Shown: piece by piece, positions 27,401-60,396 of the stretch
Layout: every line of letters begins with the position of its first letter
Numbering within the stretch: the first letter of the stretch is position 1
Assembly: GCF_044704955.1 (NCBI RefSeq)
Contig: NC_091985.1
Span: 64,356,001 to 64,420,000 of the forward strand
Direction of reading: 5' to 3'
Origin: Pristiophorus japonicus
Lineage: Eukaryota
DNA length: 64,000 bases
Notes under the pieces: generated by a model
The model's database searches: none
What the model was told of the DNA's origin: nothing
Seen by the model: the letters and a program-made list of their open reading frames with translations, nothing else
Program-made: the position numbers and the translations under genes

Positions 27401-30400
27401 GGAAGGAGACCTTGCAAAGCACTAAACACCTTCACAACAACATTAAAGAAGCATAAATACATTTAAAGCACCAAGCACTAAACAAAGCAGTACATTTGCA
27501 CCAAGTTCTAAACAAAGCACAAAAAGTAATAAGCAATGAATTAACAAATAAAAAATAGAAGGAATCCTGCACCTAAAGCACCAAGATCAAAGTAATAAGC
27601 AATCAATCAATCAGTAAATAACAAATAAAAAATAGAAGTCCTACCTTGGGGAATGCCGATGAGGGAGCCCATTCAGCCAGGGATAGGGACGGCGTGCTTC
27701 GGGCCCCTCCCACAAAGCCTGCAGCGCGCACTCTCAGATTCGGCCTGCCAGGAGCTACTGCACACGCGCGCAGACTCTAGCGCGAATGTGCAGAGGTCCC
27801 GGCACTGTTTTCAACGCCGGGACCTGGCTCTGCCCCCAATCCACTGGGCTATGCTACGCCACCACCAAGGAGAGGCTGGGGAACGGCCAGAATCAGGAGG
27901 AAGATTTTCGGTACTGTTGCACGCGGACAAAAGCGGTGCACCTCGGGTGAGGGCGCCAGAAAAAAGGGTTGGGGAAATTTGAGCCCATAAACACTAAAAT
28001 CGATGTCCTGTGGTTTAAAGTAACATTTTGTGAAGTTAATTAGCATTTTTTTAATAAAACTTTTCTAGGTATGAGCCTGCAAAGAAAATTGATAGAATGA
28101 CACTTCTCAAATCTATTCACATTTTCAAGAAGCACAGAGTTCAGTATGAGATGAGAACCCACTACAGATGTATAGAGGCAAGTAAAAGGCATGGTAGATC
28201 TCTTACTATAAACTTTCAGCTGCTAGATGCTAAACATTCGAACTTCAAATAATTTTGAACCATTAAATGAAGCTAAAGTGAAGGTCATTTTAATTATTAC
28301 ATTGCTTCCTATTTTTGCCCTTTATCTGCTCACTGTGATGTCAAGCAATTAGTAAATTGCCATAAACTTTGAGGACAAGGGTAAATTTGTTTTCTTTGCT
28401 CCTTATTAACCAAAGAAAATGTTTCTTCTTGATATGCATTGATTCGTGTAAGTACGGTGATCATGTGGCATGATATTCTGACAGGTTAACAAAATTTTAA
28501 ATGTATTTTGTTTCACAAACCCATTGTATAGAATTACTTCGCTGGTAAATAGTCAGCTTTATTCTTGTCTCATTGGGAGTCAGCCAAACAGCTGGACATT
28601 CTAATCATAGTCCCAGTGTGAAATATGCTGGTAGTAGGTATATGGGAAGGCAATCTGACATCTGTCACTTAGATTATCTGCAGCTTGTGATATAACTCTG
28701 ACTATCCAGCCTTTTAATATCAAGCATAACCAAAATTTCATTTTTCTCCAGCAGATGAAACCCTTTATGTTCTGTCAAATCCTCTTTGATTTTATAATAC
28801 CATTGGCCCAAGTTTCCACATGATTTGCGCCTGATTTTTAGGAGCAACTGGTGGAGAACGGACTATCTTAGAAATCGCAATTCTCCACATTTTTTTTTCT
28901 GCAGTTCTAGTCAGGTAGAACAGTTCTACTTTGGAACAGAATTTTTTCTTCAAAAGGTGGCGTGTCCGGCCACTGACGCCTGATTTGAAAGTTTCCACAG
29001 TGAAAACGTACTCCAAACTAAAGTAGAATGGAGCAAGTGAAGATTTTTGTAGAATTGAAAAAACCTGTTCTACACATTAAAAAATCAGGCGCAGGTTACA
29101 AATTAGGCATCCAGAACGAGGTGGAGGGGGGAAGGGAAGTCATTAAATTCTATAATAAATCCTTATTTATACTTATACAAATATTATACAAATAAATCCA
29201 ACCTGAATAAACATTTATAAGCAAAGAAAAGATTAAATAAACCATCTTCCTACCTCTGAAAGTGCTTCAGCCAGGGAGAATTCTGCAGCTGTTCGTGCCG
29301 CTGAGCGGGAGGGGGGGGGCAGAAAAAGCCGTTCGTGCCGCTGAGCGGGGGGGGGGGGGGGGGGGCGAGGAGAAAGCGGTTTGTTGTTGTGGAGGGGAGG
29401 GAGGGGAAGGAGACAGCGGTTTGTTGCCGCGGAGGGGAGGGAGGGGAAGGAGACAGCAGCTTGTTGCCGTGGAGAGAGGGGAGGGAGGGGAAGGAGACAG
29501 CGGCTTGTTGCCGTGGAGGGAGGGGAGGGAGGGGAAGGAGACAGCGGCTTGTTGCCGTGGAGAGAGGGGAGGGAGACAGCGGCTTGTTGCCGCGCAGTGG
29601 AGGGGAGGGAGGGGAAGGAGACAGCGGTTTGTTGCCGCGGAGGGGAGGGAGGGGAAGGAGACAGCGGCTTGTTGCCGTGGAGGGAGGGGAGGGAGGGGAA
29701 GGAGACAGCGGCTTGTTGCCGTGGAGGGGAGGGAGGGGAAGGAGAGAGCCGTTTGTTGCCGCGGAGGGGAGGGAGGGGAAGGAGACAGTGAGAAGGGTCG
29801 CCTCAGTGCTGATGTGCTGATGGCAATGTGATTTTATTAAAAAATGTTCAAAAATTAAACAGCTACAAAGAACTACAAAAATGGCCGAGTGCCAATGTTT
29901 TTTTTCACACTGAGCATGCGCAAACACTCCAACGCGCACGCGCAGCGTTGCCGGCAGGAAAAAAACTAATTTAAATAGTACCCGCCCCCTCCCACTTACA
30001 AAATCGGCGCGAGTGTAGGCTCCGCCCCCCTGTCGAGAATAGCGCGTTTTTTTTCTGGCGCGAAAAACGGGCGCCCAGCTCGGAGGGGCGCCCGTTTTTT
30101 ATCCTGTGGAAACTTGGGCCCCATATACCTACAGCAGACAACAGAACAGGCAATTTACTTCCAAATCTTTGCAATTGTCAGTTTTCAATCAACTGTTATG
30201 GTGTGTAACAGCAGGCCAGCAAAAAAAACTTCTTCCAAGTTTTTCTCCTCTTTTTGGGGAGACTGCCAGCCTGTGTATAGCTGAGTGGAAATTAAGTAGA
30301 GTAGGGTATGCCATGTGTTGATGCTCCAAAGTACATCCTACAAATGTATTTTACTACTACAATCTACTTTCTTTTTGCCTATTTCCTTCCCAGGTCTAAT

Positions 30401-30949
30401 GATCAAAATTTTCTGCCTTTTGTTAATGAATTGTATTTACTTCTGTAGCTATTCTTGGAATAGTAGTTGGTTTGTACAGGGAGTACTGCTGATTGATGAG
30501 CTGTCCCCAACAGCAGTCATTTTACAAATCCTCATAATGAAAGAGAAAGAAAAAACACTTTTTACTGGTGCATTCATTTTTTGTGAAATACAACTGAATT
30601 GTTAAATAGAAATATAGGACAGTTTTGAAGCCTGTGCTTGTGTGTGATTGAAGAATTCTGGCTTACTTTTAATACTGTTGCTGTTCTCTGCCAGCTCAAA
30701 TATCTGACTGGAAGCACTGCTGATGTGTACTTGGAATATATCCAGCGCAATCTTCCAGAAGGGGTCGCTATGGAGGTGACCAAGGTCAGTCTTGTATTGG
30801 TACTGGTACAATTTTTCTGATTGTCATGCATGTCTGTAATTTATAAAACTTTTCTGCCTTTTCAGACAATGTTAGAAAAACTACCTGACCACATTAAAGA
30901 ACCTGTTTGGAACACACATTCTTCTAAAGATGAAGGCAAACCAAACTGA
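6397..30949 (+). CDS. MRPS10: Mitochondrial small ribosomal subunit protein S10 (uS10m), 202 aa; join(6397..6450,8386..8444,17519..17591,21405..21544,28069..28177,30695..30784,30866..30949)
   Basis: Spliced translation contains [53 protein letters not shown] and [27 protein letters not shown], closely matching vertebrate MRPS10. Exon lengths 54+59+73+140+109+90+84=609 nt keep the frame from ATG to TGA. Confidence 0.96.
6635..7310 (-). mobile_element. Old degenerate CR1 fragments
   Basis: Remnant RT motifs (reverse complement of DVVYVDFQK near 7165-7195 and LEYCVPFW near 6685-6710). Confidence 0.6.
8386..8444 (+). CDS. MRPS10: MRPS10 coding exon 2
   Basis: tttcag acceptor and TG|GTAAGT donor; 59 nt open frame whose phase fits exons 1 and 3. 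Confidence 0.78.
8690..9051 (+). mobile_element. CR1 3' end; target of the Gypsy insertion
   Basis: Encodes [16 protein letters not shown]; CR1 3' UTR with TTCTTATG tail. Confidence 0.88.
9052..9261 (-). repeat. Gypsy 3' LTR
   Basis: Direct repeat of 14386-14596; preceded on - by the purine tract GGGGGAGTGA. Confidence 0.93.
10032..12894 (-). mobile_element. Young CR1 LINE (near-complete ORF2, frameshifted) nested in the Gypsy integrase
   Basis: Near-identical to 950-3831 in the opposite orientation; TTTCTATG tail at 10032. Confidence 0.96.
14373..14383 (-). other. Primer-binding site TGGCGACGAGG, complementary to the 3' end of tRNA-Ser(GCU)
   Basis: Lies 2 nt after the 5' LTR; vertebrate tRNA-Ser(GCU) ends in ...CCUCGUCG-CCA. 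Confidence 0.75.
14386..14596 (-). repeat. Gypsy 5' LTR
   Basis: Direct repeat of 9052-9261; followed on - by the PBS. Confidence 0.93.
15115..15720 (-). mobile_element. L2-clade LINE 3' fragment
   Basis: Encodes [14 protein letters not shown]...IQNPAARIL...; GGCGCTATATAAAT 3' end with a (TTG)-like tail. Confidence 0.8.
15738..16151 (+). mobile_element. tRNA-derived SINE inserted in the L2 fragment
   Basis: A-box-like GCATAGTGG, B-box-like GCTCAAATCC, GAATGAATAAAAAAA tail; related reverse copy near 35385-35745. Confidence 0.7.
16152..16385 (-). mobile_element. L2 LINE fragment (continuation)
   Basis: Encodes [23 protein letters not shown]...[11 protein letters not shown]. Confidence 0.75.
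16975..17413 (+). mobile_element. Deu-domain tRNA SINE (SacSINE1-like)
   Basis: GGTTCAAGTCC B box, central CAGTGCAGGACTGAAGGAGTGCTGCATTGT domain, L2-type GAAAGGTGCTATGTAAAT tail; family name from memory. Confidence 0.72.
17519..17591 (+). CDS. MRPS10: MRPS10 coding exon 3
   Basis: tttaacag acceptor (NAGNAG) and TTG|GTAAGG donor; 73 nt restores phase 0. Confidence 0.8.
17735..18243 (+). mobile_element. L2 LINE 3' end
   Basis: Encodes [24 protein letters not shown]; GGCGCTATATAAATACAAG(TTG)n tail. Confidence 0.85.
18982..20647. mobile_element. PIF/Harbinger DNA transposon derivative carrying a Myb/SANT-like protein remnant (-)
   Basis: Imperfect TIRs GGGGGGAATTTT / AAAATCCAGCCC; TAA on both flanks; [33 protein letters not shown] is the Harbinger Myb/SANT signature. 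Confidence 0.82.
20810..21195 (+). mobile_element. Deu-domain tRNA SINE
   Basis: Same organisation as 16975-17413. Confidence 0.7.
21405..21544 (+). CDS. MRPS10: MRPS10 coding exon 4
   Basis: Encodes [46 protein letters not shown]; gcag acceptor and GTAAGT donor. Confidence 0.95.
21723..25830 (-). mobile_element. CR1 LINE (TTTCTATG family) inserted in a SINE and itself split by another CR1
   Basis: ORF2 segments 21723-22545 and 24064-25830 are contiguous once the + insert is removed; SINE halves lie at about 21630-21722 and 25831-25910. Confidence 0.92.
22541..24063 (+). mobile_element. CR1 LINE (TTCTTATG family), 5'-truncated, nested in antisense orientation
   Basis: RT motifs [19 protein letters not shown]; tail TTCTTATGTTCTTA. 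Confidence 0.94.
26105..26525 (-). mobile_element. CR1 3' fragment with ATTCTATG tail
   Basis: agaatcatagaat terminus on + followed by the CR1 3' UTR and ORF2 end. Confidence 0.8.
27083..27986. mobile_element. Non-autonomous PIF/Harbinger-like element (MITE)
   Basis: Perfect TIR GGGCTCAAATTTCCCC / GGGGAAATTTGAGCCC; no coding capacity; TSD unclear. Confidence 0.8.
28069..28177 (+). CDS. MRPS10: MRPS10 coding exon 5 (GC donor)
   Basis: Encodes [36 protein letters not shown]; ttttctag acceptor and GAG|GCAAGT donor. Confidence 0.95.
28804..30121. mobile_element. Non-autonomous PIF/Harbinger-like element with an internal minisatellite
   Basis: TIR (T/G)GGCCCAAGTTTCCACA / TGTGGAAACTTGGGCCC; 3-bp TSD CAT. 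Confidence 0.85.
29365..29790 (+). repeat. G-rich minisatellite, unit about 40 bp (GGAGGGGAGGGAGGGGAAGGAGACAGCGGCTTGTTGCCGT), about 10 copies
   Basis: Tandem units visible directly; units differ in the number of GAGGG subunits. Confidence 0.95.
30695..30784 (+). CDS. MRPS10: MRPS10 coding exon 6
   Basis: Encodes [30 protein letters not shown]; ccag acceptor and GTCAGT donor. Confidence 0.96.
30866..30949 (+). CDS. MRPS10: MRPS10 coding exon 7 (terminal)
   Basis: Encodes [27 protein letters not shown]; follows an 81-nt intron ending ttttcag. Confidence 0.94.
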   Translation, partial: TMLEKLPDHIKEPVWNTHSSKDEGKPN

Positions 30950-44090: not shown

Positions 44091-46057
44091 ATGCTGCTGA
44101 CAACTTTCACGTTTTCTAACGTAGGGCTATTGGGCAGCAACCTTAGTTGATTTTCCCCCTCCTCTAGTCAGGAACACTGACCAACTATTGTGCCTCACAG
44201 CTGCCTGAGCACAGCCAGTGATCATCATTGTCTATATGGCTCAGTATTAAAACACAAAAGTGCATTTACCTACTGAGTCATTGTGGCATTTAAAATCATG
44301 CTATTTGTAGCAAGAACAGCAGTTTAAAGGACAGTAGCTACTTCACAATTGGGCTAATCAACATTATTTTGCACAGGTTCAGGTAACACCACTAAATAAA
44401 GAAAATGATTATGCAAAAACTTCTCACCTGAATTCAGTGCTCAAGCCTTCCCAGTCGTCTCAGCATCTCCATAGGCCACACAGGGTGCAATACCTATATT
44501 ACCCTTCAGGAGACAACAACAGCATCAATCTTACACCACAGTAAAAGGTGGTGATTAAAATTAAATTTAATAATCACATGCAATATTGAAGATGAAAATT
44601 AGAAAAATTGGTTAACAGGCTTATTGCATGAACAGCCTAAAAAAACTTAAGAGCAGGTTTTAAATTGGACAAAATTCAAATCACTACATTTTAATTACCT
44701 ACAGATCTTGTTTCAACGGTTAGGTCTATAAATTAAAGTATTAATCTCTTCTAATGCTACCTTTTAATATTAATATATTACTGGAAGCCAGGTATGTAGT
44801 GGGACATGCCCACATAAAATTTAGTTAACCATACCTTAACAAATTATTGTCTCTTCGTATATACAATTCCTGCTTGCAGATTTAAGACCCAAGGTAGAGC
44901 TAGCCTAAGGTTAACTTGAACAGCACACTGGTCAGAAGATAGAATTCAGCCCTCAGCACAAAGGAAACTAGCAAGGTTCGTTGTTAAACGAACTGCTTTA
45001 GTGGCAAGTTAGGTTGTGATCCTCCTGGAAGATGGCAGGCTGTTCCATAATACTTTTTCCCGTTGTTACGTTATGTTTCTCTGCCACTAACATGGCAACA
45101 TTAGAAAGAATTACAGTTGTTCATTAAATTCTTTGCAGCAAATACTGATAACACTTTCATTAGAATATTCATATGAATATATGGTAAAAGTTACTATACA
45201 TTACTTCATTAAAATATTCAAATGAATGTAGTTAGATACATTAACTGTCTAACATTTTTGTTTGTCAAACATAACATGTTACACTTCAATTGTTGTTTAA
45301 TAACAAAATCAAAAGGGTCAAGCTGCATTGTATAGATATTTTGGGAAAATGAATTTAAAACCCTTTGAAATTCACAATTGTTTTAAATATTTTTTTTATT
45401 TTCTCAGGAGTTTTTCATTATGCTCTTTCTGGTTCAGAAAGTAACATTAATCCACATTTACTTCAATTACATTATTTAGTGTTTATAACAGTTCAAAAGT
45501 TAAAACAGTGTGATTTTGTTTCCACGTATGGAATAATCCAGCCATTAACTACTTTTACTTTACATTGTTACTTGCTGTCAGTATTTTCAAATTTAAAAAC
45601 ACTTCACTTCTATAAAATAAGGATGCACAAGCAATATTTCTAGACAAACAACATTATTAAAACAATCACAGCTACCTAAGCTAAAATAGCTGCACAAAAG
45701 TATTTTCAAACTGCATAAAAGTAGACTGCATGATTCTTTACAAAGATAAATGCTTGACCTCGGCAGAGACATCTAGACATAAAACATGAATGGTATTTAA
45801 TCATTCAAGATTTGTGTGTGCATGAGGCACCGAAAGGAGTCCATACAGCTTATATAAAACAATGCTTCGAAAGTCCAAGGAGTCACAGAAATATATATTT
45901 GTATGGCTTGTGCCATCTGGTGCATGAGGGCTGCTGCAAATATTGTTGACAAGTCTCAACTAAGTTTCTTTGCCAGCTTTACTATTTGCTGTTCCTAGTC
46001 CGGCCATCTCAAAACTTTTTGTGTGCGCCCCACTATACAATTTAACAGTAAGTGGCT

Positions 46058-46148
46058 TTAAAAGCGTCTGCCACCTGGCGGTCCAGGCCATCTCTGGCCC
46101 CGTCCAGGTGGCGGAGGTGGCGGCGGCACACCAGGTCCATTGTGAAAG
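46058..46148 (-). CDS. RGG/Pro gene coding exon 5 (stop)
   Basis: Encodes [29 protein letters not shown]; pyrimidine tract followed by acacag acceptor. Confidence 0.85.
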
Positions 46149-49100
46149 CTGTGTAAAAGGATAAAATCACAATTTTTTTTGTTTTATGGTGTACTTTTCT
46201 TTATTAAAAAAATTAAAGCTAGTTATAAAAATCGAACAGTTACACTATTTTTAATTATTTTATACACTAAATAGTAATTTGTAACATTCTTGACATGCAG
46301 ATTTTTATAGGCTTCCAAAATATAACATTACTCACTACATTAAGGGCTAATTACAAAAATTAGATCCAAGTATTTTGTTTTAACTTAGAGAAGAAGAATT
46401 TACAACGTTTTGGGAAAATGATCCCACACAACAAGCCTGAGATTCACTTACCCTCTCCGAGGTGGGAAAACCCCTCTTCGCATGCCTCTACCTCGAATAA
46501 AGGGGGGTCTTCCTCTGAAGCGCATTGGTCCTGGAGGAGGAGGAAGGGGTAGTGGTGGAGGAGGAGGAGGAGGAGGAGGAGGAGGGCCACCACTCCTAAA
46601 TCTGCAAGACAATTATCAAATATTAATAACCAAAGAAAGCAAATCAAAACATATTTTATTGAAACTAGAGTGAAGGTGAAGTTCTAAGCAACTGAATGAG
46701 GCTACAGAGGGTGGGGACAGTTGGAGTCGGAACATATAGAAAGTCACATTCTCAGCTTAGGATTTGTAATAAAAATATTGACATTTTCATTGCTTAGTAA
46801 TACAACAGACTGCATATCTTTTCTGCTAAAATCCCTTGCAAGCCATATCCTTACAATCACGAAAATTTGAATGAGCCGCACAGCCAGTTAAAGGAACCAC
46901 GCACAAAAAAAACATTAGAGGGAACATTGGCCTTGATCTAACTGAATTGCAGAACTGGCTTGAGGGGCTGAATGACTGTACAGTATCCAGTTATGCTGTA
47001 CCAAATCTAGTAGGATTTGATGTCAACATTAATTGCCCAAAATAAAACTTTTACTCTCCAGCATAAACACCTTTCATTGATTTGCCAATGCAGGTCAGCA
47101 ACCACAGGGGTGTTGGATGAGCAGCACTTGGTGCAGGATAGGATACAGGAAACAGAGTTTTTGATGAGTGGAGATTTATGGAGGTTGGGGGATAGGAAGC
47201 TGCCTAGGAGAGCATTAGAATAGTTGAGTGTCCACATGGATGAGGGTTTCAGTAGCAGATTGGCAGGGGCAGAGATGGGCAAATAGAGACGTGAAAGTAG
47301 GCAGTCTTTCTGATGGAAAGTATATGAGGCAGGTGGCTCTGTTCAGGGTTAAATAGCATGCCAAGATTGCAAACAGTTAGCTTCAACTTGAGACAGGGGC
47401 CGGGGAAGGGATGGAATCGCTGGCGAGGGAATAGAGCTTGTGGCAGAGGCCAAAGACGGTGTTTAACTAGAGGTTAATTGCAGCTTATCTAGGACTAGAT
47501 GTCAGACAAGCAGTCTGACCACACAGAGGCAGTTGAGGGTCCATTTGGGTTTATTTGGCAGTATTGGCATACTTTCATATTCTCTGTTCACATCAGGGCC
47601 ATGGCAAACCAATCAATTGCTGCTGGTGCCTGAATGGATTAAAATTTTGCCCTAAAGTTCATTTATCCATATTTTAGGGGTCATCTGTGTGCAATTTCAT
47701 ATTTCTGATATGGAAAATAGCCTTGCTGCTGGTACTCGTTTCTGCCTAAAGAATAAGCAATGTTCAAGTTCTTGATTTATGCAACTTGTATGGAGAGACA
47801 AAATAATTCTAATGATGCATGAAAGGTGTCCCATTCAAAAGAAGAAACCCTTACAATTTAACCATCTTTGCTGTATTTAAAACACCACCTTCTGTTAAAT
47901 TACAGCTTGCAACATCCAAGCTTCATCCATTTAATGTCTACTAGCTTTAAAGATTTCAATCTCTCTAGTAATGCAACTTAAGTTCAGTAAGTTGTGAATG
48001 TTCCAGTCTTGTCCTTGCACATGATCTGGCTCAGGGGTTCTCACCAAAGTGTTACCAATTCTCTATCAAATCCTACAATTCCTTACCTTGGTGGGGGTGG
48101 GAAAGGCATATCTCCTCGTCCACCAAATGGACATTCCATCCCTCTCCTCATAAGTAGTGGTCCATGCCTAGGCGGACCTCTTCGACCACGAGGATCTGGG
48201 TATGGGCGCATTCTAGTATTTCCCATACCACGTCTAAAACAGAAAACATATTTTAACTCTCAAAATGAGTAAACACAATTCACATAAAGTTAACATTTTT
48301 AACTATGACCATAAAATCTGTTAAAATTAAACTCTCTCAAACTTTTTTTTGTGTGAATCAAAGTGCCCAAGTTAGCACCAAGAAAATAGAACTTACTATT
48401 CATGCACCCAGTGTCAGCAAACATTCAGTTAGATGCAGAATGAAACTCCCTCTATTCTACCCCAACAAAATAATATAATTTTAAGTATTTTACATATTAT
48501 AATTAAAATAATGGATAATGTTAAAAGCTTTGCCAGTCAGAATGGAAGGAGTCAAAACATCCTATAGATCTGGCACAGGCACGATGGGCTGAATGGCCTC
48601 CTTCTGTGCTGTAAGATTCTATGATTCTCCGTGACACAAACAGTGGTTAATTGGGAAAATACACCACATGGATTGCCAGTGAGCCATACAGATCATAAGA
48701 ACATAAGAAATAGGAGAAGGAGTAGGACATGCGCCATTCAATAAGATTAGGGCTGATCTTCTACATCAACTTCACTTTCTTTCCCTATCCCTATATCCCT
48801 TAATGCTCCTAAATATATCGATCTCAGTCTTGAATATACATAGGATTACATACGTTATACAGCACAGAAACAGGCCATTCAGCCCAACCAGTCCAGGCTG
48901 GCGTTTATGCTCCACTCGAGCCTCCTCCCTTCATTCCTCATCTAAATTCATCCACATAACCCTCTATTCCCTTCTCGCTCATATGCTTGTCTAGCCTACC
49001 CTTAAATGCATCTATACTATTCGCTTCAATCACTCCATGTGGTAGCGAGTTTCACATTCTCACCACTCTTTGGGTAAACTTTCTTCTGAATTCCTTATTG

Positions 49101-52100
49101 GATTTCTTGGTGACTATCTTATATTAATGGCCTCGAATTATCTTCTTCCCCACAAGTGGAAACATTCTCTCTGTATCCACTCTATCAAAACCTTTCATAA
49201 TTTTAAAGACCTCTATTGGGTCACCCCTCAGACTTCTGTTTTCAAGAGAAAAGAGACCCAACTTGTTCATCTTTCCCTAATATGTATCCCTCGCATTTCT
49301 GGTATCATCCTTATAAATCTTCAGTGCATTTATATCATTTTTATAATATGGTAACCAAAACTGTATGCAGTACTCAAAGTGTAGTCTAACCAAGATTTGA
49401 TACAGATTTAACATAAATTCCCTACCTGTAGAAATAAACTCTAGTGCTTTTCTATGGCCTTGCTAACCTGTGTCACAACATTTAATTTGTGTATTTGTAC
49501 TCCGAGATCCCTTTGTTCCTCTACCCCACCTAGACTCGCACCCTTCAAGTAATAAGTGACCTCCCTATTCTTCCTACCAAAATGTAATACCTCACATTTA
49601 TCTGTGTTGAACTTCATTTGCCAATTATATGCCCATTCTGCAAGTTTATTAATGTCCTCCTGTAATTGTTGCAGTCCTCCTCAGTATTAACTATCCCCCC
49701 AATTTGGTGTCATCTGCAAAGTTAGAAATTGTGTTTTTGATTCCAATGTCTAAATCGTTAATATAAATTGTGAACAGTGGTCCCAACACTGATCCTTGTG
49801 GAACACCACTACCCACCTTCTGCCACTGTGAATAGCTACCCTTTACCCCTACTCTCTGCTTTCTGTCTTGAAGCCAGCTAGCTATCCAGTCTTCTACTTG
49901 TCCCCTGACTCTGCATTCTCTGACCTTCTTCATCAGTGTATTATGGGGTACCTTATCGAAGGCCTTTTGAAAATTTAGGTAAATTACATCTACTGCATTA
50001 CCATTGTCTACTCTCTCTGTTACCTCTTCAAAAAATTCAATGAGGTTGGTCAAGCAAGACTTTCCCTTTTGAAATCCATGCTGACTATTCATTACTATTT
50101 TTTTGGTTTCTAGATGTTCTATTTTCTCCTTTAATAGGGATTCCATTATATTTCCTACCACCGATGTTAAGCTGACTGGTCTATAATTCCCTATACATGT
50201 TCTATCCCCCTTCTTAAATGCAGGTTGAACCTCCCTTATGCGGAACCCTCGGGACCTGGCCTGTTCTGGATAAGGGATTTTTCAGGACGAGAGGTGGTCA
50301 CGTTAAATTGGATGGTACAGGTACTGAAGTAAGGGGATATCGGGGCTAGTTGGCTCGGGGCTGGGAGTGCGGCAGAGATCATGGGGGCGAGGCGGTGGAT
50401 CGCGGGGTCAGGCTAACAATTGCGGGAGTCGGCAGCGAGTAAGGACTTCGATTTGTTCATGTCAGAGTTCTGCGCATGCACCACCCAGTGGCCGGGAATG
50501 GTTCCGGACGAGGGGTGGTTCTGGATAAGGGAGGTTCAACCTGTATAGTATTATGTTAGCTATCCACCAGTCCTCTGGCACTACACCTTTTTCGAGCGAA
50601 TTATTAAAGATGTGTAGTAATGCCTCTGCTATCTCTTCCCTAGATTCTTTTAAAATGTGTGGATGCAATCCAAGGGATTTTATCCTCTTTGAGTTTGATT
50701 AGTTTATTTAATATGTCCCCTCTTTTTATTTTAAATGCACTTATCTCATCATCCAATGTCATGTCCACCTGTTCTATCTCCCTGGTAAATAATGAAGCAA
50801 AATAATTATTTAATATTTCTGCCATCGTTACCTGTGGTATTACCCTGTCTATTGCTTAATGGCCATATTCCCATCCCAATCTTCCTTTTTTTATTGATGT
50901 GCCTGTAAATTATTTTACTATTGTTTTATGCTCCTTGATAATTTAATTTCTTTTGTCTCTGGGTTAGGGTAGAGGGAAAAATATATAGATGACGCCCCAC
51001 ATTTTCACCATCAAGCGACCTTCTGCAAATACAAACATGCAGACTACTGGCTGAGGGCAAGGTTGACACTGGCTTTGATGGCCCCAAGTCAAATATGCTA
51101 TCAACACATAACTGTCCATGTTCACCAATAAAGAATAATCACTTGAATAAGCCACTGGAGCGCTACTGCTTCTGGAAGTGTACCCAGATCAAGTGATCAT
51201 CTTAAGGATAAGAGGGCAGAAAATTGGGAAAGAAGAAAGAAATACCTTGCAGGGCCAAATCCATTTGCCGCTGCTTGTCCTCGCCTAAATCTGCCAGCTG
51301 GTCCACCTCTACTCGGTGACCCTAGATCCTTAGGTCCTCCAAAAGCATCTCTGCTGCCTCTTCCTCTGCCACCTCTGGCCATTCGCCCGCCTTTTCCTCT
51401 TCCTTTACCTCCACGGCCCCTGCTCAAAATAGTAGCATTACATTTTACTTCTCTTCACTGCATATTACATTTAGTATAAGATGGCACTATAATCCAAACA
51501 GCAGAAAATATTCAGGGACTTGGACTTTTAATAAATAAGTCCGTCCAGTACCATTGCAATATGGAATTAATTAGTAAGTTATTTTCCCCAACTATCCATC
51601 TCGGTTTAAAAAGTTAAACGTTAAGTATTTTCCCACATCCAAGTGCAATTATTTTCCTGAATACAGGTCTTAGAAATTGGCCAGAAAACAAATGCATACT
51701 TTTGGCCATTTAGCTTAGAAGAAACAAGTAGTGGACTATTTGTATGATTCATAGGTATTTTCCAGTAATAGAAAACATAGAACATAGAAAAAATAGAAAA
51801 TAGGTGCAGGAGTAGGCCATTCGGCCCTTTGAGCCTGCACCACCATTCAATATGATCATGGCTGATCATGCATTTCAGTACCTCATTCCTGCTTTCTCTC
51901 CATACCCCTTGATCCCTTTAGCCGTGAGGGCCACATCTAACTCCCTTATGAATATATCTAACGAACTGGCCACAACAACTTTCTGTGGTAGAGAATTCCA
52001 CAGGTTCACCACTCTCTGGGTGAAGAAGTTTCTCCTCATCTCGGTCCTAAATGGCTTATCCCTTATCCTTAAACTGTGACCCCTGGTTCTGAACTTCCCC

Positions 52101-55100
52101 AATATCGGGAACATGCTTCCTGCATCTAACTTGTCCAATCCCGTCAGAATTTTATATGTTTCGATGAGATCCCCTCTCATTCTTCTAAATTCTATTGAAT
52201 ACAAGCCTAGTTGATCCAGTCTTTCTTCATATGTCAGTCATGTCATCACGGGAATCAGTCTGGTGAACCTTCGCTGCACTCCCTCAATAGCAACACATCC
52301 TTCCTCAGATTAGGAGACCAAAACTGTACACAATATTCAAGGTGTGACCTTATCAAGGCCCTGTACAACTATAGTAAGATCTCCCTGCTTCTATACTCAA
52401 ATCCTTTCGCTATGAAGGCCAACGTGCCATTTGCTTTCTTTACTGCCTGCTGCACCTGTATGCCAACCTTGGCACCCAGGTCTCGTTGCACCTCCCCCTT
52501 TACCAATCTGTCACCATTCAGATAATAAACAGCCCTCCTGTTTTTACCACCAAAGTGGATAACCTCACATTTATCCACATTATACCGCATCTGCCATGTA
52601 TTTGCCCACTCACCCAACCTGTCCAAATCACCCTGCAGCCTCTTAGCATCCTCCTCACAGTTCACACTGCCACCCAGCTTAGTGTCATCTGCAAACTTGG
52701 AGATATTACATTTAATTCCTTTGTCTAAATCATTAATGTACATTGTAAATAACTGGGGTCCCAGCACTGATCCTTGCGGTACCCCACTAGTCACTGCCTG
52801 CTATTCTGAAAAGGACCCGTTTATTCCTACTCTCTGCTTCCTGTCTTACAACCAGTTCTCTATCCACGTCAGTACATTACCCCAATACCATGTGCTTTAA
52901 TTTTGCACACTAATCTCTTATGTGGGACCTTGTCAAAAGCCTTTTGAAAGTCTAAATACACCACATTCACTGGCTCCCCCTTGTCCACTCTACTAGTTAC
53001 ATCCTCAAAAAATTCTAGAAGATTTGTCAAGCATGATTTCCCTTTCATAAATCCATGCTGACTTGGACTGATCCTTTCACTGCTTTCCAAATGCGCTGCT
53101 ATTTCATCTTTAATAATTGATTCCAACATTTTCCCCACCACCGATGTCAGGCTGACCGGTGTATAATTCCCTGTTTTCTCTCTCCCTCCTTTTTTAAAAA
53201 GTGGGGTTACATTAGCTACCCTCCAGTCCATAGGAACTGTTCCAGAGTATAGAATGTTGGAAAGTGACCACCAATGCATCCACTATTTCTAGGGCCACTT
53301 CCTTAAGTACTCTAGGATGCAGACTATCAGGCCCTGGGAATTTATCGGCTTTCAATCCCATCAATTTCCATAATACAATTTGCTGACTAATAAGGATTTC
53401 CTTTAGTTCCTCCTTCTCGGTAGACCCTCGTTCCCCTAGTATTGGTTTCATACCAATTTAACATCAAAATGTTAAATTGGTATGAAACCAATTAGTTCAC
53501 TTAAGCACAGAAAGGTTTGTAAAATAAAGTTTATTTGTTTTCAAGATATCTTAGGATAGCTAACAGTTTGTGGAACTCACTTTAGTGGTAACATTTTCAG
53601 CTCATTATATTTCCTAAATTATGCATGTCCATGTTATTTCTGATACGATGACATTTCCTCAAACATTATAAGAACATAATAAAAAGGAGCTGGAGTAGGC
53701 CATTTGACCCTGCTCTGCCATTCAACAAGATCATGGTTGATTTACCTCAACACCTTTCCGCACTATCCCCATATCCCTTAATTCGCCAAAATTTATCGAC
53801 CTCAGTCTTGAATATACGCACTCTGGGGTAGAGAATTCCAAAGATTCACAACCCTTTGAGTGAAGAAATTTCTCCTCATCTCAGTACCTACCAGCCGACC
53901 CCTCATGCTGAGACTGTGACCCCGTGTTCTAGATTCCCCAGCCAAAGGAAACATTTTCTCAGCACTGTCAAGCCCTATAAGAATTTTATATGTTTCAATT
54001 AGATCACCTCAATCTTCTTAACTCTAGGGAATATAGGCCTAGTTTGCTCAATCCCTCCTCATAGGGTAATCCCCTCATCCCAGGAACCAGAGAAATGAAC
54101 CTTCATTGTACTCCCTCTAAGGCAAGTGTGTCCTTCCTACATTACAACAGTGACTACACTCCAAAAGTACTTCATTGGCTGTAAAGCACTTTAAGACATC
54201 TGGTGGTCCTTCCTTCCTTTCTTCCTTCCGTAAGGAGACCGGAACTGTATATAGCACTCCAGGTGTAGCCTCGCCAATGCCCTGTATAATTATAGTAAGA
54301 TTTATTTACTCTTATACTCTAATCCCTTTGTAACAAAAGATAACATACTATTTGCTTTCATCTTTGCTTTCATCATTGCTTTCTGTACCTGCATGTTAAC
54401 TTTCTGTGATTCATGTACAAGAACACTCAGGTCCCTCTGAATGCAAACATTTCCCAGTCTCTTACCATTTAAAAAATATTCTACTTTTTTGTTTTTCCTA
54501 CCAAAGTGGATAACTTCACACTTCCCCACATTGTATTCCATTTGCCATGTTCTTGCCCACTCAGTCAACCTGTCTATATCTCTCTGCAGCCTCTTTTCGT
54601 CCTCCCCACAGCTTATTTTGCCACCTAACTTTGTACCATCAGCAAATTTGAATACGTTACACTCAGTCTCTTCATCCAAGTCATTAATATAGATTGTAAA
54701 TAGCTGAGCCCAAGCACTGATCCTTGCGGTACCCCACTAGTTACAGCTTGCCAACCCGAAAAAGTCCTGTTTATTCCTACTCTGTTTTCTGTCCATCAAC
54801 CAATGTTTAATCCATGCTAATATATAACCCCCAATTTCACGAGTCCTAATTTTGTGTAATAACCTCTTGCTTTTTGAAAATCCAAATACTACATCTACTG
54901 GGTCCTCCTTATAAGAACATAAGAACATAAGAATTAGGAACAGGAGTAGGCCATCTAGCCCCTTGAGCCTGCTCCGCCATTCAACAAGATCATGGCTGAT
55001 CTGGTCGTGGACTCAGCTCCACTTACCCGCCCTCTCCCCGTAACCCTTAATTCCCTTATTGCTTAAAAATCTATCTATCTTTGACTTGAAAACATTCAAT

Positions 55101-56754
55101 GAGCCAGCCTCAACTGCTTTCTTGGGCAGAGAATTCCACAGATTCACAACCCTCTGGGAGAAGAAATTCTTTCTCAACTCGGTTTTAAATTGGCTCCTCC
55201 GTATTTTGAGGCTGTGCCCCCTAGTTCTAGTCTCCCCCACCAATGGAAACAACCTCTCTGCCTCTATCTTGTCTATCCCTTTCATGATTTTAAATGTTTC
55301 TATAAGATCACCCCTCATCCTTCTGAACTCCAAGGAGTAAAGACCCAGTCTACTCAATCTATCAGCATAAGTTAACCCCCTCATTTCTCGAATCAGCCTA
55401 GTGAATCGTCTCTGTACCCCTTCCAAAGCTAGTATATCCTTCCTTAAGTAAGGTGACCAAAACTACACGCAGTACTCCAGGTACGGCCTTACCAATACCT
55501 TATACAGTTGCAGCAGGACCTCCCTGCTTTTGTACTCCATCCCTTTCGCAATGAAGGCCAACATTCCATTTGCCTTCCTGATTACCTGCTGCACCTGCAA
55601 ACTAACCTTTTGGGAAAAAAAGAGTTTCATGCACAAGGAGCCCCAGGTCCCTCTGCACCACAGCATGTTGTAATTTTTCCCCATTCAAATAATATTCCCT
55701 CTTACTGTTTTTTTTCCCAAGGTGGATGACCTCACACTTTCCGACATTGTATTCCATCTGCCAAACCTTAGCCCATTCGCTTAACCTATCCAAATCTCCT
55801 TGTAGCCTCTCTGAGTCCTCTACACAACCCGCTTTCCCACTAATCTTAGTGTCATCTGCAAATTTTGTTGCACTACACTCTGTCCCCTCCTCTAGGTCAT
55901 CTATGTATATTGTAAACAGTTGTGGTCCCAGCACTGATCCCTGTGGCACACCACTAACCACTGATTTCCAACCGGAAAAGGATCCATTTATCCCGACTCT
56001 CTGCTTTCTGTTCGCCAGCCAATTCTCTATCCATGCTAATACATTTCCTCTGACTCCGCATACCTTTATCTTCTGCAGTAACCTTTTGTGTGGCACCTTA
56101 TCGAATGCCTTATCCATCCTACTAGTTACATCATAAGCAAGTTTGTAAAATCTCACCGTCAAGGATTTTTTACATGAAGTGCAACTAGTTTATAAACCAC
56201 TAAAACACCCCAAACAGGAATTTATAAGTAATGAGTTATTCCAAAGCAAACATCTGATTGAGTGGATGATATTAAACCAAAAAAGGTCACATGGCTTATA
56301 AGAACATAATGGTCGTTAGATGACATAATAGCCCTGAAAACCAAGTTTTTGAAATGTGTATTACACATTTCAGGGGCTGCAGCAATTCAGATGGGGGCCT
56401 TTACTGCATCCAAAATGGCCCCAAATATAGATACTAATGCTATTAATGCACAACAGTGATGTGATCACTCCAAGTTGATCAAGGATTAATCCACGTTATC
56501 TTGTAGAATCATTCAAATGATTTCAATTGATTGCCAACAAATGACATGATCACTGTGTATTTATATGATTTCATTGCTCCACATACTTCTCAACCTGTTG
56601 TGCCAAGGCTTTTTTTTTAAAAACCTTATTTCAAATGGACCTTTACCATATTTCATTTTACCAACCTATTTATATCGAAATGTCCAAAATCATATATCCA
56701 TACATTAGCTTACCTAATGTTGTCACCGCCACCAGTCTGTTCATCAAAATCCAT
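46058..56754 (-). CDS. Uncharacterised 200-aa RG/RGG- and proline-rich low-complexity protein; complement(join(46058..46148,46452..46601,48087..48233,51246..51419,56714..56754))
   Basis: Five exons (41+174+147+150+91=603 nt), all with AG acceptors and GT donors, splice into one frame: [35 protein letters not shown]...[14 protein letters not shown]...FRSGG(P11)[23 protein letters not shown]...[16 protein letters not shown]. The exons are GC-rich islands in AT-rich introns. Confidence 0.88.
46452..46601 (-). CDS. RGG/Pro gene coding exon 4 (polyproline, includes (CCT)9)
   Basis: Encodes FRSGGP11[33 protein letters not shown]; cttgcag acceptor and GG|GTAAGT donor. Confidence 0.88.
47075..47540 (-). 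mobile_element. Old L2 LINE fragment
   Basis: Encodes [27 protein letters not shown]. Confidence 0.65.
48087..48233 (-). CDS. RGG/Pro gene coding exon 3
   Basis: Encodes [48 protein letters not shown]; gttttag acceptor and AG|GTAAGG donor. Confidence 0.88.
48845..50960 (-). mobile_element. CR1 LINE (older family) with a nested MITE
   Basis: ORF 49691-50161 with [26 protein letters not shown] and FADD. Confidence 0.9.
50221..50543. mobile_element. Second copy of the pogo/Tigger-like MITE
   Basis: Same TIRs and interior as 38094-38427; left TA mutated to TG. Confidence 0.88.
51246..51419 (-). CDS. RGG/Pro gene coding exon 2 (RGG box)
   Basis: Encodes [28 protein letters not shown]...NGFGPA; gagcag acceptor and AG|GTATTT donor. 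Confidence 0.88.
51768..53443 (-). mobile_element. CR1 LINE (TTTCTATG family), 5'-truncated
   Basis: RT and C-terminal ORF fragments; extended CTATGTT-type tail. Confidence 0.93.
53441..53492. repeat. Perfect 24-bp inverted repeat with a 4-nt loop
   Basis: ATTGGTTTCATACCAATTTAACAT-CAAA-ATGTTAAATTGGTATGAAACCAAT. Confidence 0.97.
53667..56135 (-). mobile_element. Older CR1 (53667-54910 and 56110-56135) containing a younger CR1 (54911-56110) and a SINE tail fragment (about 54137-54225)
   Basis: Host frame [15 protein letters not shown] is split by an element with an AAGAACAT-repeat tail (on +). Confidence 0.88.
56714..56754 (-). CDS. RGG/Pro gene coding exon 1 ([13 protein letters not shown])
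   Basis: ttgcag|ATG acceptor directly before the start codon; AG|GTAAGC donor. Confidence 0.8.
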
Positions 56755-56859
56755 CTGCAAATCAAAATTAAAAAAAAATATTCAAGTTGCCTTGCTTAGT
56801 ACATTTCACCAAAGCTCATTAACCCCCAACTAAGCCCCATCACAAAAATCAGCCCTTTC

Positions 56860-57500
56860 TAGCCTGCACTATGAGAGCGCTGACCCAGCTCCTTACCATT
56901 CAACTTCCCCTTTTCATTTCCATGATCAGTAGGATCATCAACCATCTCTACCCTGACTCAGTGCCGTATCTTTCAAAACCACCAGCAACAACCCCCTCAA
57001 AAAAATCTACTCTCAACCACTCCATTCTCAACGACTGCTGATCTCTAACTTTCCCTTTCTCTCGAAAGTCTCTAAAGCATTCCAACTATGCTCCCACCTC
57101 CATCACCACATTCTGTTCAAAGCCCTTAACTATGTTTCCGTCCTACTCACAGTACAGAAGCACTTATCCTATGTGCTAGTGACCAATGTTGACTGCCCCT
57201 CCTCAACTTTCAACATTGTCAACCCACTCCATTTTTCTCGATTGTTTCATCTCCAAAGTTCATGTTTGTGGCATGCTCTTTGCTGGTTCAATTTCTTACT
57301 GTTGTACCATAGACATTACATTGCTTCAACTGGCTTCTTCGTGCATATCTGCACAATTGTTTCTGGTATATCCTGGTATTCTCATCTTGGCTCTCTGCTC
57401 CTCATCATTTACAAGCTACTCCTTGGTAATGTTATCCATGGGATTTGCTTTCACATGTATGCTGATGACACCCACTCTACCGTGCCACCTCTGCTTCATT
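56860..57500 (+). mobile_element. Old L2 RT fragment
   Basis: Encodes ISNFPFLSKV, HSTEAL and FHMYADDT. Confidence 0.65.
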
Positions 57501-57874
57501 GCCTGGTGCTGTCCCCAACTCCCTCCACTCCAAGATGGTAGAAAGCAAACTAGATGGACCGAATATCTGGCAGAATACAAGCAGTTAAGTGTTGGACAAG
57601 CTGCAGCTCATGAATGATGGATAATAGGAAGGCAGCAAAGAGACATTTGAAAAATGGGGTCTAATAGTGACAAAGCATGGCTAAGAGTTTTAGTGACGGT
57701 GGTACTGAGGGGCAGAGGCAAGTAATGTGGAAATAAGTGGTCTTCGTGATGGATAGGACGTACATTTGAAGCTCAGTTTTGAGTCGATCAGAACACCATC
57801 TAACCAGTCCTACACTATGTAGTTGACTCTTAATGCCAGTAGGGCAACTAGGAATTGACAATAGTGTCTTTAAG

Positions 57875-58188
57875 TGTCAGCTGTGGCCCAGTGGACAGCA
57901 GTCTTGCCTGAGTCAGAAATAGGTGAGTTCAAGCCCCACTCCATAGATTTGAGCACATTTATTATAAAGGAAGAGGCACTGTTTCAGATGAGACAGTAAA
58001 CTAGGCCTCGTCTGCCCTCTCATGTGGACATCAAAGATGTCAAGGCACTATTGGTGTACAAATTGACTTCTACATTTCCCTACATTACAACAGTGACTAC
58101 ATTTCAAAAAGTGCTTGTTTGACCATGATGTGCTTTAAGACATCTTGAAGTCTTGAAAGCCACTATATAAATGAAAGTACTTTCTTTC
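57875..58188 (+). mobile_element. Deu-domain tRNA SINE (internally deleted)
   Basis: GTGGCCCAGTGG A box, GTTCAAGCCC B box and the same 3' tail as the other copies. Confidence 0.7.
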
Positions 58189-59371
58189 AATGGAGGATGG
58201 CGGCATGACTGACCGTATCAAATGCTACGGAGAGATTAATGAAGACAAGGAGGGATCATGAATCATAGTCACAGTGAATGTAATTGGTGACTTTAGTCAT
58301 TGTTGTCTTCAAACTTGTGAGCAATGCAGAAGCTGGACTGTGAGAATTCAAACAAGGAGCTTTTGGAGAATGGGTTACAGAGCAGATTGAGGACAACATG
58401 TCTGAAGATCTCAAGACAGGAAAGGAAGGTTAGAGAAGTGGTAGTAGTTAAAGAGAATGCATAGTTTGAGGGTATTTTCTTTTAGGAGGGGTGACAATGA
58501 CAGTTGACAGAGGGTGGGATCAATGAGCAAATAGCACCATTAACAATGTTAGCTAGCAAGGGGGCCAGGAGAGGTAGTTAATTGTGATTAGGAGTTAAAT
58601 GGGGAGGTAATTGAGGGAGCAGAAGACATGAGCCTATAGAGAATGTAATGATGGGAGTGAGAAACTATGAAGTATCAGGAATTGGAGCTGGAGTGAGTGG
58701 GCTACTGGAGACATGTCAGGAGCAGGAAGAGAGGAAGGGGAGGTCATGTCATAAGCAGATGCATGACATTTTCAATCTGAGGCTAAGAAATCCATAAACC
58801 ACTTGGTATCTGAGGTTAGCATGAAGGTGTGGGCAAAAGTTTCAGTGAGAGAAAAGGAGACATAGGTATATAATTGGTTTTGAAACATAACTGGAAAGTA
58901 GATATTTTGTTTTATGGAAATGGAGTTAGTTTCATAAATAAATATCATCCATTACCTATAATAAAGGTTTGCAGAACAAGCAAATGGAATGAAAAACAAA
59001 AGTTTTGAGTGTTTTCTGCATCCTTGATTTACAGGAGGAGCTACTATCCATTTTTTCTCTTTGGGGTTGAGGAAAGAGAGAGGCAAATAAGTGAAATTTA
59101 GGACCAGCATCACACACCAATTCTGAGAGAGTTAAACTTTAGGTTAACAATCTGCTTATCGTGAAAGGAAAATGTGAAAGGATCATTTCGTGTAGGGAGA
59201 CGGGGAAGCTGCAAAGTGGACACACTGACAGAGAATGAATCAGGTTGAAGTCAACTGGGGGTGGAGTGAGGGTAAAACGAAACAACTCACTGTTGCTGTT
59301 CTGACACCTACACAATAGAATACGATAAACGGGACTGTTTAAACACAGGAACCGGTTATTAATACATTCGC

Positions 59372-59488
59372 GTTCTGACGAAGGGTCATCGACCCGAAAC
59401 GTGCACAGATGCTGCCTGACCTGCTGAGATTTCCAGCATTTTCTGTTTTTATTCCAGATTCCAGCATCCGCAGAATTTTGCTTTTTTG
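59372..59488 (+). mobile_element. Penelope-like element terminal fragment with a hammerhead-ribozyme core
   Basis: CTGACGA-A-GGGTC-ATC-GACCC-GAAAC followed by GATGCTGCCTGACCTGCTGAG..TCCAGCA; flanked by the direct repeat TATTAA(T/C)ACATTCGC. Confidence 0.7.
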
Positions 59489-59794
59489 TATTAACACATT
59501 CGCTCGGCGTTCTGGTTAAGAGCATCAATGGGTGTATTCTTTTAAATGGAGAGTATTTCGCATTTCTAACGCATATTACTGATATTTACAAAGGATCTAG
59601 TTTTTTTTTAAACATTGCCAAATATGAGAAAAAGTTTGTCGGAAACACTTGGGGATGGACGAGAGTCAGTCAGTGAGATCCCGGCTCAAGACAAAGGACC
59701 CAGCTCAAAGCCTGGGCCGCGGCTTTAAATCCCCCACCGCAGCGCAGCGCTCGGACAGCGAGAGTGAGAAAGGCGCGCTTGATTGCATACTTGC

Positions 59795-59960
59795 CTCCAC
59801 TGTGCAGGTGGGATTAAAGGTAAAAGGCGCGCTCTTTAATTTAAAAAAAAACTTCCCTCGAGTCAAACCACACGCGGTGCATGAACGGTTTTTAATTCCA
59901 AAGGAAAGTCCCAATGATGCTAGCTAACGGTAACCGCTGACCACAAAATGGCGAGTTACT
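59795..59960 (-). other. Putative non-coding first exon of the RGG/Pro gene (GC donor)
   Basis: Starts at a CGCCATTTT (YY1-type) motif and ends at GAG|GCAAGT. Splicing to 56754 would give a strong GAGATGG Kozak context. The transcription start is only estimated. Confidence 0.5.
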
Positions 59961-60286
59961 GCGCGGCTCAACCAAACTTTGGCTCTGCCAACCCCGCCCC
60001 CTCCTCTTTCCTGATTGATGGTTCGCTTTCCGTTTGTTGACGCCTACTCCCGAAGCGGGCCGTTGATTGGACGCAGTCCACGTCAATTACATCTCACCGC
60101 CAGCTCTGGAGACAGAATTGATCAAATTCGGAGTCAGGGAGGCGGCTGAACCAATCGCACGAGGCCGTATTGGGAGGTGGAATCAGACCAGCCGATGGAA
60201 ATTGTCCAATCAAATCCGCAGCAAACACGCGGTGCTCAGTGACGCCAGCAAGTTGGCTGGAACAAGTGTGTTGTGTGGTATGTGAA
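59940..60286. promoter_or_regulatory. Bidirectional CpG-rich promoter shared by the RGG/Pro gene (-) and UTP25 (+)
   Basis: YY1-type AAAATGGCG at 59945-59953; GC box CCCCGCCCC at 59992-60000; CCAAT/ATTGG boxes at 60066, 60151, 60169 and 60206 in both orientations. Confidence 0.75.
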
Positions 60287-60396
60287 ATGGGGAAAAGAAA
60301 GAGCAGTGGACGGTCGCGGGAGAGTGGGAGCAACTTAACCAAGAAACAGATGAAACACCTCCGGGAATTCGGGGAGGAACATCCCTTTCACGATAA
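60287..60396 (+). CDS. UTP25: UTP25 coding exon 1
   Basis: GAAATGG start; encodes KHLREFGEEHPFHD; AA|GTGAGT donor. Confidence 0.93.

What the first reader, a model, noticed from the sequence alone, without database searches (positions are those of the whole stretch)
46058..59960. Uncharacterised, intact RGG/polyproline gene between MRPS10 and UTP25
Seen: five clean exons splice to a 200-aa protein made almost entirely of RG/RGG repeats, polyproline tracts (P11, P7) and GPP/RF motifs. It has an R-x-x-PY motif (RMRPY) after a basic stretch and no recognisable folded domain. The ORF track misses it because the exons are short and low-complexity. Established: RGG boxes bind RNA, are methylated by PRMTs and drive nucleolar/condensate localisation; polyproline binds WW/SH3/GYF domains; basic...R-x(2-5)-PY is the transportin-1 PY-NLS consensus. 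Inference: a fully disordered nuclear RNA-binding or condensate protein, co-regulated with the SSU-processome factor UTP25. I recognise no named human orthologue.
Basis: partly seen in the sequence, partly recalled or inferred. Interest (0 to 1): 0.8.

Follow-up and report, generated by a model that had tools for sequence, protein, structure and literature searches.

The report
Uncharacterised disordered protein of non-mammalian vertebrates
This is a real, spliced shark gene for a small unstructured arginine/glycine/proline-rich protein; relatives were found in fishes, amphibians, lizards and turtles but not in birds or mammals, and it probably helps handle RNA in the nucleus, which nobody appears to have tested.

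Summary
Five phase-2 GT-AG exons on the minus strand give a 200-aa protein (P 24%, G 23.5%, R 19%). Contigs from 4 of 4 public runs join the first three coding exons and add a non-coding first exon with a GC-AG intron.

The gene is not new. It is already annotated: a public shark record shares its last 186 residues. It belongs to the uncharacterised family carrying the zebrafish placeholder name si:ch211-51e12.7. The 89 hits come from sharks, chimaera, bowfin, teleosts, amphibians, turtles and squamates, under many unrelated automatic names; none is from a bird, crocodilian or mammal (capped search).

There is no Pfam domain, PDB match or predicted fold. Short motifs are conserved: R-x-x-PY in 79 of 89 (24 expected), FRGRPP, and a near-invariant C-terminal tail. 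RGG triplets are few (3), and P11 is species-specific.

Best reading (0.4): a transportin-imported nuclear adaptor binding RNA and WW/GYF-domain factors. The UTP25 link is a real shared promoter here but seems absent in teleosts. New lead: the MRPS10|UTP25 junction holding the gene is broken in human and cattle.

The parts
59795..59959 (-). Non-coding first exon (5' UTR) with a GC-AG donor (GAG|GCAAGT); holds a 13-codon out-of-frame uORF from 59882 and a YY1-like motif at 59946 (motif name recalled)
   Evidence: Joint 56754/59795 in 4 of 4 runs; contigs of 3 runs start at 59953-59959; donor and uORF
59250..60300 (.). CpG-island bidirectional promoter shared with UTP25: CCAAT boxes at 60066, 60151, 60169, 60206, GC box at 59994, no TATA. 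UTP25 ATG at 60287 on +
   Evidence: CpG o/e 0.88-1.03 in windows starting 59250-60000, against 0-0.33 in the flanking windows away from the island edges; motifs; Utp25_C match on + about 32 kb past the window end
56714..56754 (-). Coding exon 1: ATG at its first base; short acidic N-terminus
51246..51419 (-). Coding exon 2: RG-rich basic segment ending in the conserved NGF motif; skipped in some shark isoform records
48087..48233 (-). Coding exon 3: conserved RMRPYPD core (putative basic PY-NLS)
46452..46601 (-). Coding exon 4: variable polyproline tract (P11 here), then the conserved PPG..FRGRPP motif
46149..46451 (-). Short last intron (303 nt); if retained, the frame stops at once and the protein ends in ...RRG
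   Evidence: shark records ending in RG; intron-covering contigs in 2 of 4 runs, a weak hint
46058..46148 (-). Coding exon 5: P7 and the near-invariant C-terminal tail [14 protein letters not shown][FY], then the stop
45380..46057 (-). 3' UTR with AATAAA at 45400 (the 45380 end is an estimate); a candidate alternative acceptor at 46032 would give a G-A-H tail like that of teleost isoform records
   Evidence: contigs cover 45407-46149
28082..30781 (+). Neighbour MRPS10 (two matched exons), tail-to-tail with the gene
   Evidence: Pfam S10 matches; best PDB hits are 28S mitoribosomal S10, E 5e-14

Best explanation
A single-copy, housekeeping-type gene encoding a 21 kDa, strongly basic, fully disordered protein of the si:ch211-51e12.7 family. 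It most likely works as a domain-less nuclear adaptor in RNA processing, like a free-standing version of the SmB/B' tail. Transportin-1 would import it through the central basic PY-NLS. The RG/FRG segments would bind RNA and be arginine-methylated. The PPG/PPLP segments and the invariant C-terminal [10 protein letters not shown][FY] tail would dock WW/GYF-type domains of mRNA-processing factors, with multivalency favouring condensates. Alternative 3' processing (last-intron retention or downstream acceptors) removes the tail and could act as an off switch.

Shown: gene, splicing, disorder, conservation, motif selection, isoform classes in public gene models. Inferred: localisation, partners and function. 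Confidence that the gene is real is about 0.98; the figure given is for the mechanism.
For: Splicing. 89 homologues from shark to squamate; one match in the own genome. No Pfam family in 31 of 31 aligned members, no PDB match, no secondary structure. pI 12, net charge +32. All sequence rules for a PY-NLS are met: disorder, basic character, basic N-terminal stretch, RX2-5PY (passages of PMC2408616). Motifs against composition-matched shuffles: PY 79 vs 24.1; NG-hydrophobic-R 82 vs 5.0; FRGRPP-type 57 vs 1.2; PPPG[RH] 40 vs 4.3; PPLP 41 vs 4.9, each of 89. The last 15 residues average 13.9/15 identity in the 41 proteins selected for carrying that exon. SmB/B' tails combine RG regions with proline motifs and recruit CD2BP2-GYF and FBP21-WW (passages of PMC5127646 and PMC11412891).
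Against: The exact OCRE consensus RPPP(P)G-phi-R and the CD2-type PPPPGHR occur in 0 of 89. Only 3 RGG and no di-RGG. A PY motif appears in 15% of shuffles of this protein, so it is persuasive only through conservation, and conservation could reflect another partner. Motif counts use patterns that I chose after seeing the alignments, on related sequences, so they overstate independence. A gene dispensable in mammals and birds (if the absence is real) is unlikely to be a core spliceosome part.
Confidence: 0.4

Rival explanations
1. Nucleolar ribosome-biogenesis cofactor co-expressed with UTP25 from the shared promoter, acting like the GAR domains of fibrillarin or GAR1.
For: Transcript starts about 280 bp apart on one CpG island, estimated from contig ends; very basic, RG-rich sequence.
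Against: Three teleost models carry a bHLH exon directly upstream on the same strand (one on a 31-kb contig), and the best shark match of that bHLH lies on another contig. The sequence is proline-rich with few RGG, unlike GAR domains (recalled). Head-to-head housekeeping pairs often share no function (established knowledge).
Confidence: 0.12
2. Shuttling or cytoplasmic RNP-granule protein (stress granule, P-body, germ plasm) that binds GIGYF/Smy2-type GYF or WW proteins to control maternal mRNA; this would suit retention in egg-laying lineages with external or yolky development.
For: RG-rich disordered proteins bind transportin-1 and still enter stress granules (CIRBP; abstracts in the listing); PPG motifs; no hit in mammals.
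Against: No PPG-hydrophobic motif in the window protein (that motif class is recalled); no hit in birds either; housekeeping-type promoter; tissue expression not known.
Confidence: 0.18
3. Short-lived regulatory peptide whose conserved end is a C-terminal degron or a specific receptor-binding tail: R at -3 in the full form, -RG in the intron-retained form, so isoform choice sets its half-life.
For: R at the -3 column in 39 of 41 tail-bearing proteins; 4 of 89 records end in RG; KLHDC3 targets -RG and TRPC4AP targets R-3 (passages of PMC7458402).
Against: These degrons are 1-2 residues long and common in an R/G-rich protein; they do not explain 15 conserved residues including W; other short isoforms end in GVT (11 of 89).
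Confidence: 0.12
4. Actin or signalling scaffold whose polyproline tracts bind profilin, EVH1 or SH3 domains, as the automatic names (formin-like, WAS-like) suggest.
For: P11, FPPPP and LPPPP, PxxPxR in the window protein.
Against: Polyproline length is the least conserved feature; the names follow composition only and differ between isoforms of one gene; the conserved parts are the basic PY and FRG motifs.
Confidence: 0.06

Closest known systems
si:ch211-51e12.7 family (uncharacterised; name carried by teleost records P0029, P0039, P0075, P0082, P0102, P0146)
   Same: Profile E-values 4e-10 and 3.5e-7 from a shark-only alignment; same order of motifs and same C-terminal tail; no Pfam domain.
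   Different: Teleost members have a longer acidic N-terminus and His-rich proline segments, and seem to lie next to a bHLH gene instead of UTP25.
SmB/B'/N C-terminal tail and WBP11/SIPP1 (proline-rich ligands of WW, GYF and OCRE domains)
   Same: Disordered RG segments next to PPPG motifs; multivalent.
   Different: No Sm fold; OCRE and CD2 consensus motifs in 0 of 89; no sequence homology found.
Basic PY-NLS cargoes of transportin-1 with RG-rich signals (yeast Hrp1 and Nab2; FET proteins)
   Same: RG-rich basic stretch followed by RX2-5PY in a disordered region.
   Different: The PY lies mid-protein; there is no RRM, zinc finger or prion-like domain, so the whole protein is the disordered part.
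Fibrillarin, CPSF6, SNRPB, SF3B4, formin, WAS (names given to members by annotation pipelines)
   Same: Amino-acid composition only.
   Different: None of their folded domains is present; isoforms of one gene carry different names.

Membership tests
si:ch211-51e12.7 family | Significant full-length similarity to members that carry the name | tested here: met
si:ch211-51e12.7 family | Shared motifs in order (NG-F, RxxPY-PD, FRGRPP, C-terminal [11 protein letters not shown][FY]) | tested here: met
si:ch211-51e12.7 family | Single copy in this genome (no paralogue to confuse orthology) | tested here: met
   1 match among 9 scored candidates with the exon-3 peptide; only the last exon of this locus matched the family part of P0048
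si:ch211-51e12.7 family | Same gene neighbourhood as in teleosts | tested here: inconclusive
   No vertebrate genome but the own one could be read; fused teleost models point to a different upstream neighbour
Basic PY-NLS cargo of transportin-1 | Disordered segment of 30 or more residues, overall basic, basic N-terminal motif, RX2-5PY | tested here: met
Basic PY-NLS cargo of transportin-1 | RanGTP-sensitive binding to transportin-1 and PY-dependent import | not testable with these tools
   needs a bench assay
RGG-box RNA-binding proteins (FET, fibrillarin, nucleolin, GAR1) | Clustered RGG repeats | tested here: not met
   3 RGG, no di-RGG; three tri-RG clusters are present
RGG-box RNA-binding proteins (FET, fibrillarin, nucleolin, GAR1) | Folded RNA-binding or catalytic domain | tested here: not met
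   0 Pfam families in 31 members; 0 PDB matches
SmB-type proline-rich ligands | PPG core in a disordered, Arg-flanked context | tested here: met
   PPG at residues 143, 184, 194; PPPG[RH] in 40 of 89
SmB-type proline-rich ligands | RPPP(P)G-phi-R (OCRE) or PPPPGHR (CD2-type) consensus | tested here: not met
   0 of 89 for each
SmB-type proline-rich ligands | Measured binding to WW or GYF domains | not testable with these tools
   no complex job was sent

The most novel reading that the evidence does not exclude
An ancient jawed-vertebrate gene made only of linear motifs: no fold, yet a 15-residue C-terminal tail almost unchanged from sharks to lizards. It defines an undescribed docking motif that alternative 3' splicing switches on and off in every lineage. 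The gene was lost separately in archosaurs and mammals, and in the line to placental mammals the chromosome broke in the very interval it occupies, splitting MRPS10 from UTP25. It would be a non-mammalian RNA-processing or condensate regulator missed because it is absent from human, mouse and chicken and hidden under more than 15 wrong automatic names.
Probability: 0.25. Interest if true: 0.68.

Novelty: new member of a known kind. Interest (0 to 1): 0.42.

Why it matters
The gene is already in databases, but the searches here found no description of it as a family: 0 papers for the zebrafish name, no Pfam model, and misleading names. A foldless protein with motifs conserved across jawed vertebrates is a clean test case for linear-motif function. 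It can be studied at once in zebrafish or Xenopus. If its absence from mammals is real, the coincidence with a synteny break gives a testable example of gene loss at a rearrangement. It does not point to a new kind of system.

Tried and rejected
Artefact or chance exon chain: rejected. Orphan shark gene: rejected. Fibrillarin/CPSF6/SNRPB/formin identity: rejected, no domains.

Blank searches, none of which shows novelty: Pfam on four single exons; ESM Atlas gave one unnamed chordate cluster of 122 members, possibly its own, and no usable named hit for a gecko member; the 50%-representative search gave 7 proteins, all found already; Rfam 0 matches in 30000-64000; earlier scan notes had nothing. 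No RNA holder was listed on record.

Paper searches: the zebrafish name gave 0 papers in main texts (supplements are not searched and may list it). MRPS10 + DIEXF gave 4 papers whose titles are unrelated, listing only. The breakpoint search gave 2 papers; passages of one were read and do not name this junction. Passages of PMC4436281 gave only general support for multivalent WW binding.

dN/dS was not computed: no homologous coding DNA was available, and one search shows only part of the differences. No complex prediction was sent, since no suitable partner was in hand. Searches used exon starts that were one base off and were redone; the C-terminal identity figure was offset by two columns and was redone. 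Contig depths were not used to rank isoforms.

Full report
OBSERVATION. On the minus strand, exons 56754-56714, 51419-51246, 48233-48087, 46601-46452 and 46148-46058 join to 603 nt, an open frame of 200 aa. All four introns are GT-AG and phase 2. The protein is 24% P, 23.5% G and 19% R, with net charge +32 and pI 12; it has 19 RG, 3 RGG, proline runs of 4, 11, 4 and 7, and one PY in RMRPY. The introns hold diverged reverse-transcriptase-type repeats.

TRANSCRIPT EVIDENCE. The run search listed 24 holders, none on record as RNA. I laid 4 of them, from 4 studies, on 44400-60400. In each, one contig joins a 5' exon (59795 to about 59959) to the ATG exon, to the 51419 exon and to the 48233 exon, at the predicted positions. 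The first intron is GC-AG. The last two junctions are not among the joints shown. They rest on an X3 contig that holds both the 48233 exon and the last exon with 120 nt between, and on a public record. That record (P0004, named Pristiophorus japonicus in UniRef) is identical over the last 186 residues, and its different N-terminus maps to 54175-54141 of this window. So the locus is already annotated. The 3' UTR is covered down to 45407, next to an AATAAA at 45400.

FAMILY. The exon-3 peptide found 6 shark proteins. A shark alignment found 35 proteins, among them records named si:ch211-51e12.7. A broader alignment found 89. By source name I sorted these into 7 shark, 1 chimaera, 1 bowfin, 55 teleost, 7 amphibian, 4 turtle, 11 squamate and 3 unnamed. 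None is from a bird, crocodilian, mammal, lamprey or invertebrate. Both profile searches scored only 8000 candidates, so absence is not proven. The unindexed search of 1.84 billion representatives gave 7 hits from the same groups. Members carry more than 15 unrelated automatic names, often different for isoforms of one gene. The own genome has one match. There is no Pfam family (0 of 31 members), no PDB match, and the AlphaFold model of P0004 has mean pLDDT 58, pTM 0.18 and no secondary structure.

WHAT IS CONSERVED. Against composition-matched shuffles of the 89 proteins: [RKH]x2-5PY in 79 (24.1 expected), NG-hydrophobic..R in 82 (5.0), FRGRPP-type in 57 (1.2), PPPG[RH] in 40 (4.3), PPLP in 41 (4.9). 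I chose these patterns after seeing the alignments, and the sequences are related, so they show conservation and are not independent tests. Of the 89, 41 carry the canonical last exon; their last 15 residues match the window protein at 13.9 of 15 on average, 14 of them exactly (selected by part of that motif). Of the other 48, 11 end in G-V/I-T/A/I, 4 end in RG, 10 go on with GA(H/L)S- or GT-like tails, 3 read on with VTP, and 20 are partial or other. In the window, retaining the 303-nt last intron stops the frame at ...RRG, and an acceptor at 46032 would give a G-A-H tail like the teleost ones. So loss of the tail by alternative 3' processing recurs in gene models across lineages; these are models, not measured isoforms.

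NEIGHBOURHOOD. MRPS10 lies tail-to-tail on the + strand. UTP25 starts head-to-head: ATG at 60287, Utp25_C match about 32 kb past the window end (that the 60287 exon is its first exon rests on position and on my recall of the human N-terminus). The two share a CpG island with CCAAT and GC boxes and no TATA. Three teleost models (P0027, P0048, P0051) fuse an HLH exon upstream of the homologue (P0027 below the Pfam cut-off). The best shark match of that bHLH is on contig C7, not C9. The UTP25 pairing is therefore probably not family-wide.

SYNTENY BREAK. In this genome C9 carries TBCC (63.57 Mb), MRPS10 (64.38), this gene, UTP25 (64.45) and a SERTA-domain gene (65.05; not confirmed as SERTAD4). 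C17 carries DUF4504 (108.87 Mb; = C1orf74, recalled) and TAF8 (114.38). In human the order is C1orf74, IRF6, DIEXF (UTP25), SYT14, SERTAD4 (table passage of PMC3751720). In human and cattle it is TAF8, GUCA1A, GUCA1B, MRPS10, and in cattle further TRERF1, UBR2, PRPH2, TBCC (table passages of PMC2758866 and PMC8396740). So in placentals MRPS10 and UTP25 each lie next to genes whose neighbours sit on shark C17, on the sides that face this gene. A passage of PMC9550189 calls an HSA1/HSA6 association ancestral to mammals, with support in platypus and marsupials, without naming this junction. Against a simple story: the two C17 markers are 5.5 Mb apart, so more than one event is needed; no monotreme, marsupial or bird protein was found, so loss may predate the break; and I could not read any other vertebrate genome.

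MECHANISM. Shown: a real, conserved, foldless, basic protein built of linear motifs. From established knowledge: disorder, basic character, a basic N-terminal stretch and RX2-5PY define a basic PY-NLS (passages of PMC2408616). RG regions next to PPG motifs, as in the SmB/B' tail, recruit GYF and WW splicing factors (passages of PMC11412891 and PMC5127646). Inferred (0.4): a nuclear, multivalent RNA-processing adaptor whose C-terminal tail is a specific docking site that can be spliced away. Against: the OCRE and CD2-type consensus motifs occur in 0 of 89, RGG triplets are few, and no functional data exist. Rivals: cytoplasmic or maternal RNP granule protein (0.18); nucleolar UTP25 partner (0.12); degron-controlled peptide (0.12; -RG and R-3 degrons from passages of PMC7458402); actin scaffold (0.06).

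NOVELTY. The gene and its homologues are annotated, so this is a member of an existing but uncharacterised family, and in kind an RG/proline-rich disordered protein. Main-text searches for the zebrafish name found no paper; supplements and most subscription journals were not searched. What this work adds is the family outline, its conserved motifs, the recurring tail-less isoform models and the coincidence with a synteny break. Papers were seen as listings or passages only; none was read whole. Interest 0.42.

Noticed in passing
window 54175-54141 (minus): The N-terminus of public isoform record P0004 is encoded here, inside intron 1 of the coding region, at a spot where many repeat-like contigs end: probably a repeat-derived alternative first exon in the annotation.
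   Followed up: partly
window 59794 (minus): The first intron has a GC donor (GC-AG), seen in 4 of 4 runs; the 5' exon also holds a 13-codon out-of-frame uORF starting at 59882.
   Followed up: partly
window 46057-45870 (minus): The 3' UTR just after the stop looks conserved: off-frame tails of teleost and monitor-lizard models (P0080, P0091, P0071) resemble off-frame translations of the shark last exon and UTR, including a G-A-H acceptor at 46032 and a V-T-P stretch near 45887.
   Followed up: partly
P0027, P0048, P0051: Three teleost gene models fuse a bHLH exon (mesogenin-like by recall) to the homologue; probably annotation fusions of neighbours, but read-through was not excluded.
   Followed up: partly
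P0033, P0062 (leatherback turtle): These records lack the PY motif and have a divergent middle segment, which may mean relaxed selection or a model error in that species.
   Followed up: no
window 29230-29830: G+C-rich tandem-like repeat with long open frames in several phases, inside an MRPS10 intron.
   Followed up: no
window 9294-10097 and 12879-14508 (minus): Open frames resembling gag/protease/integrase pieces of an LTR retrotransposon (by recall), interrupted by LINE-type insertions.
   Followed up: no
G000:C4167:174841-175125: A full-length, intron-less Ribosomal_S10 match with one TGA on a small contig: could be a processed pseudogene or foreign DNA in the assembly.
   Followed up: no
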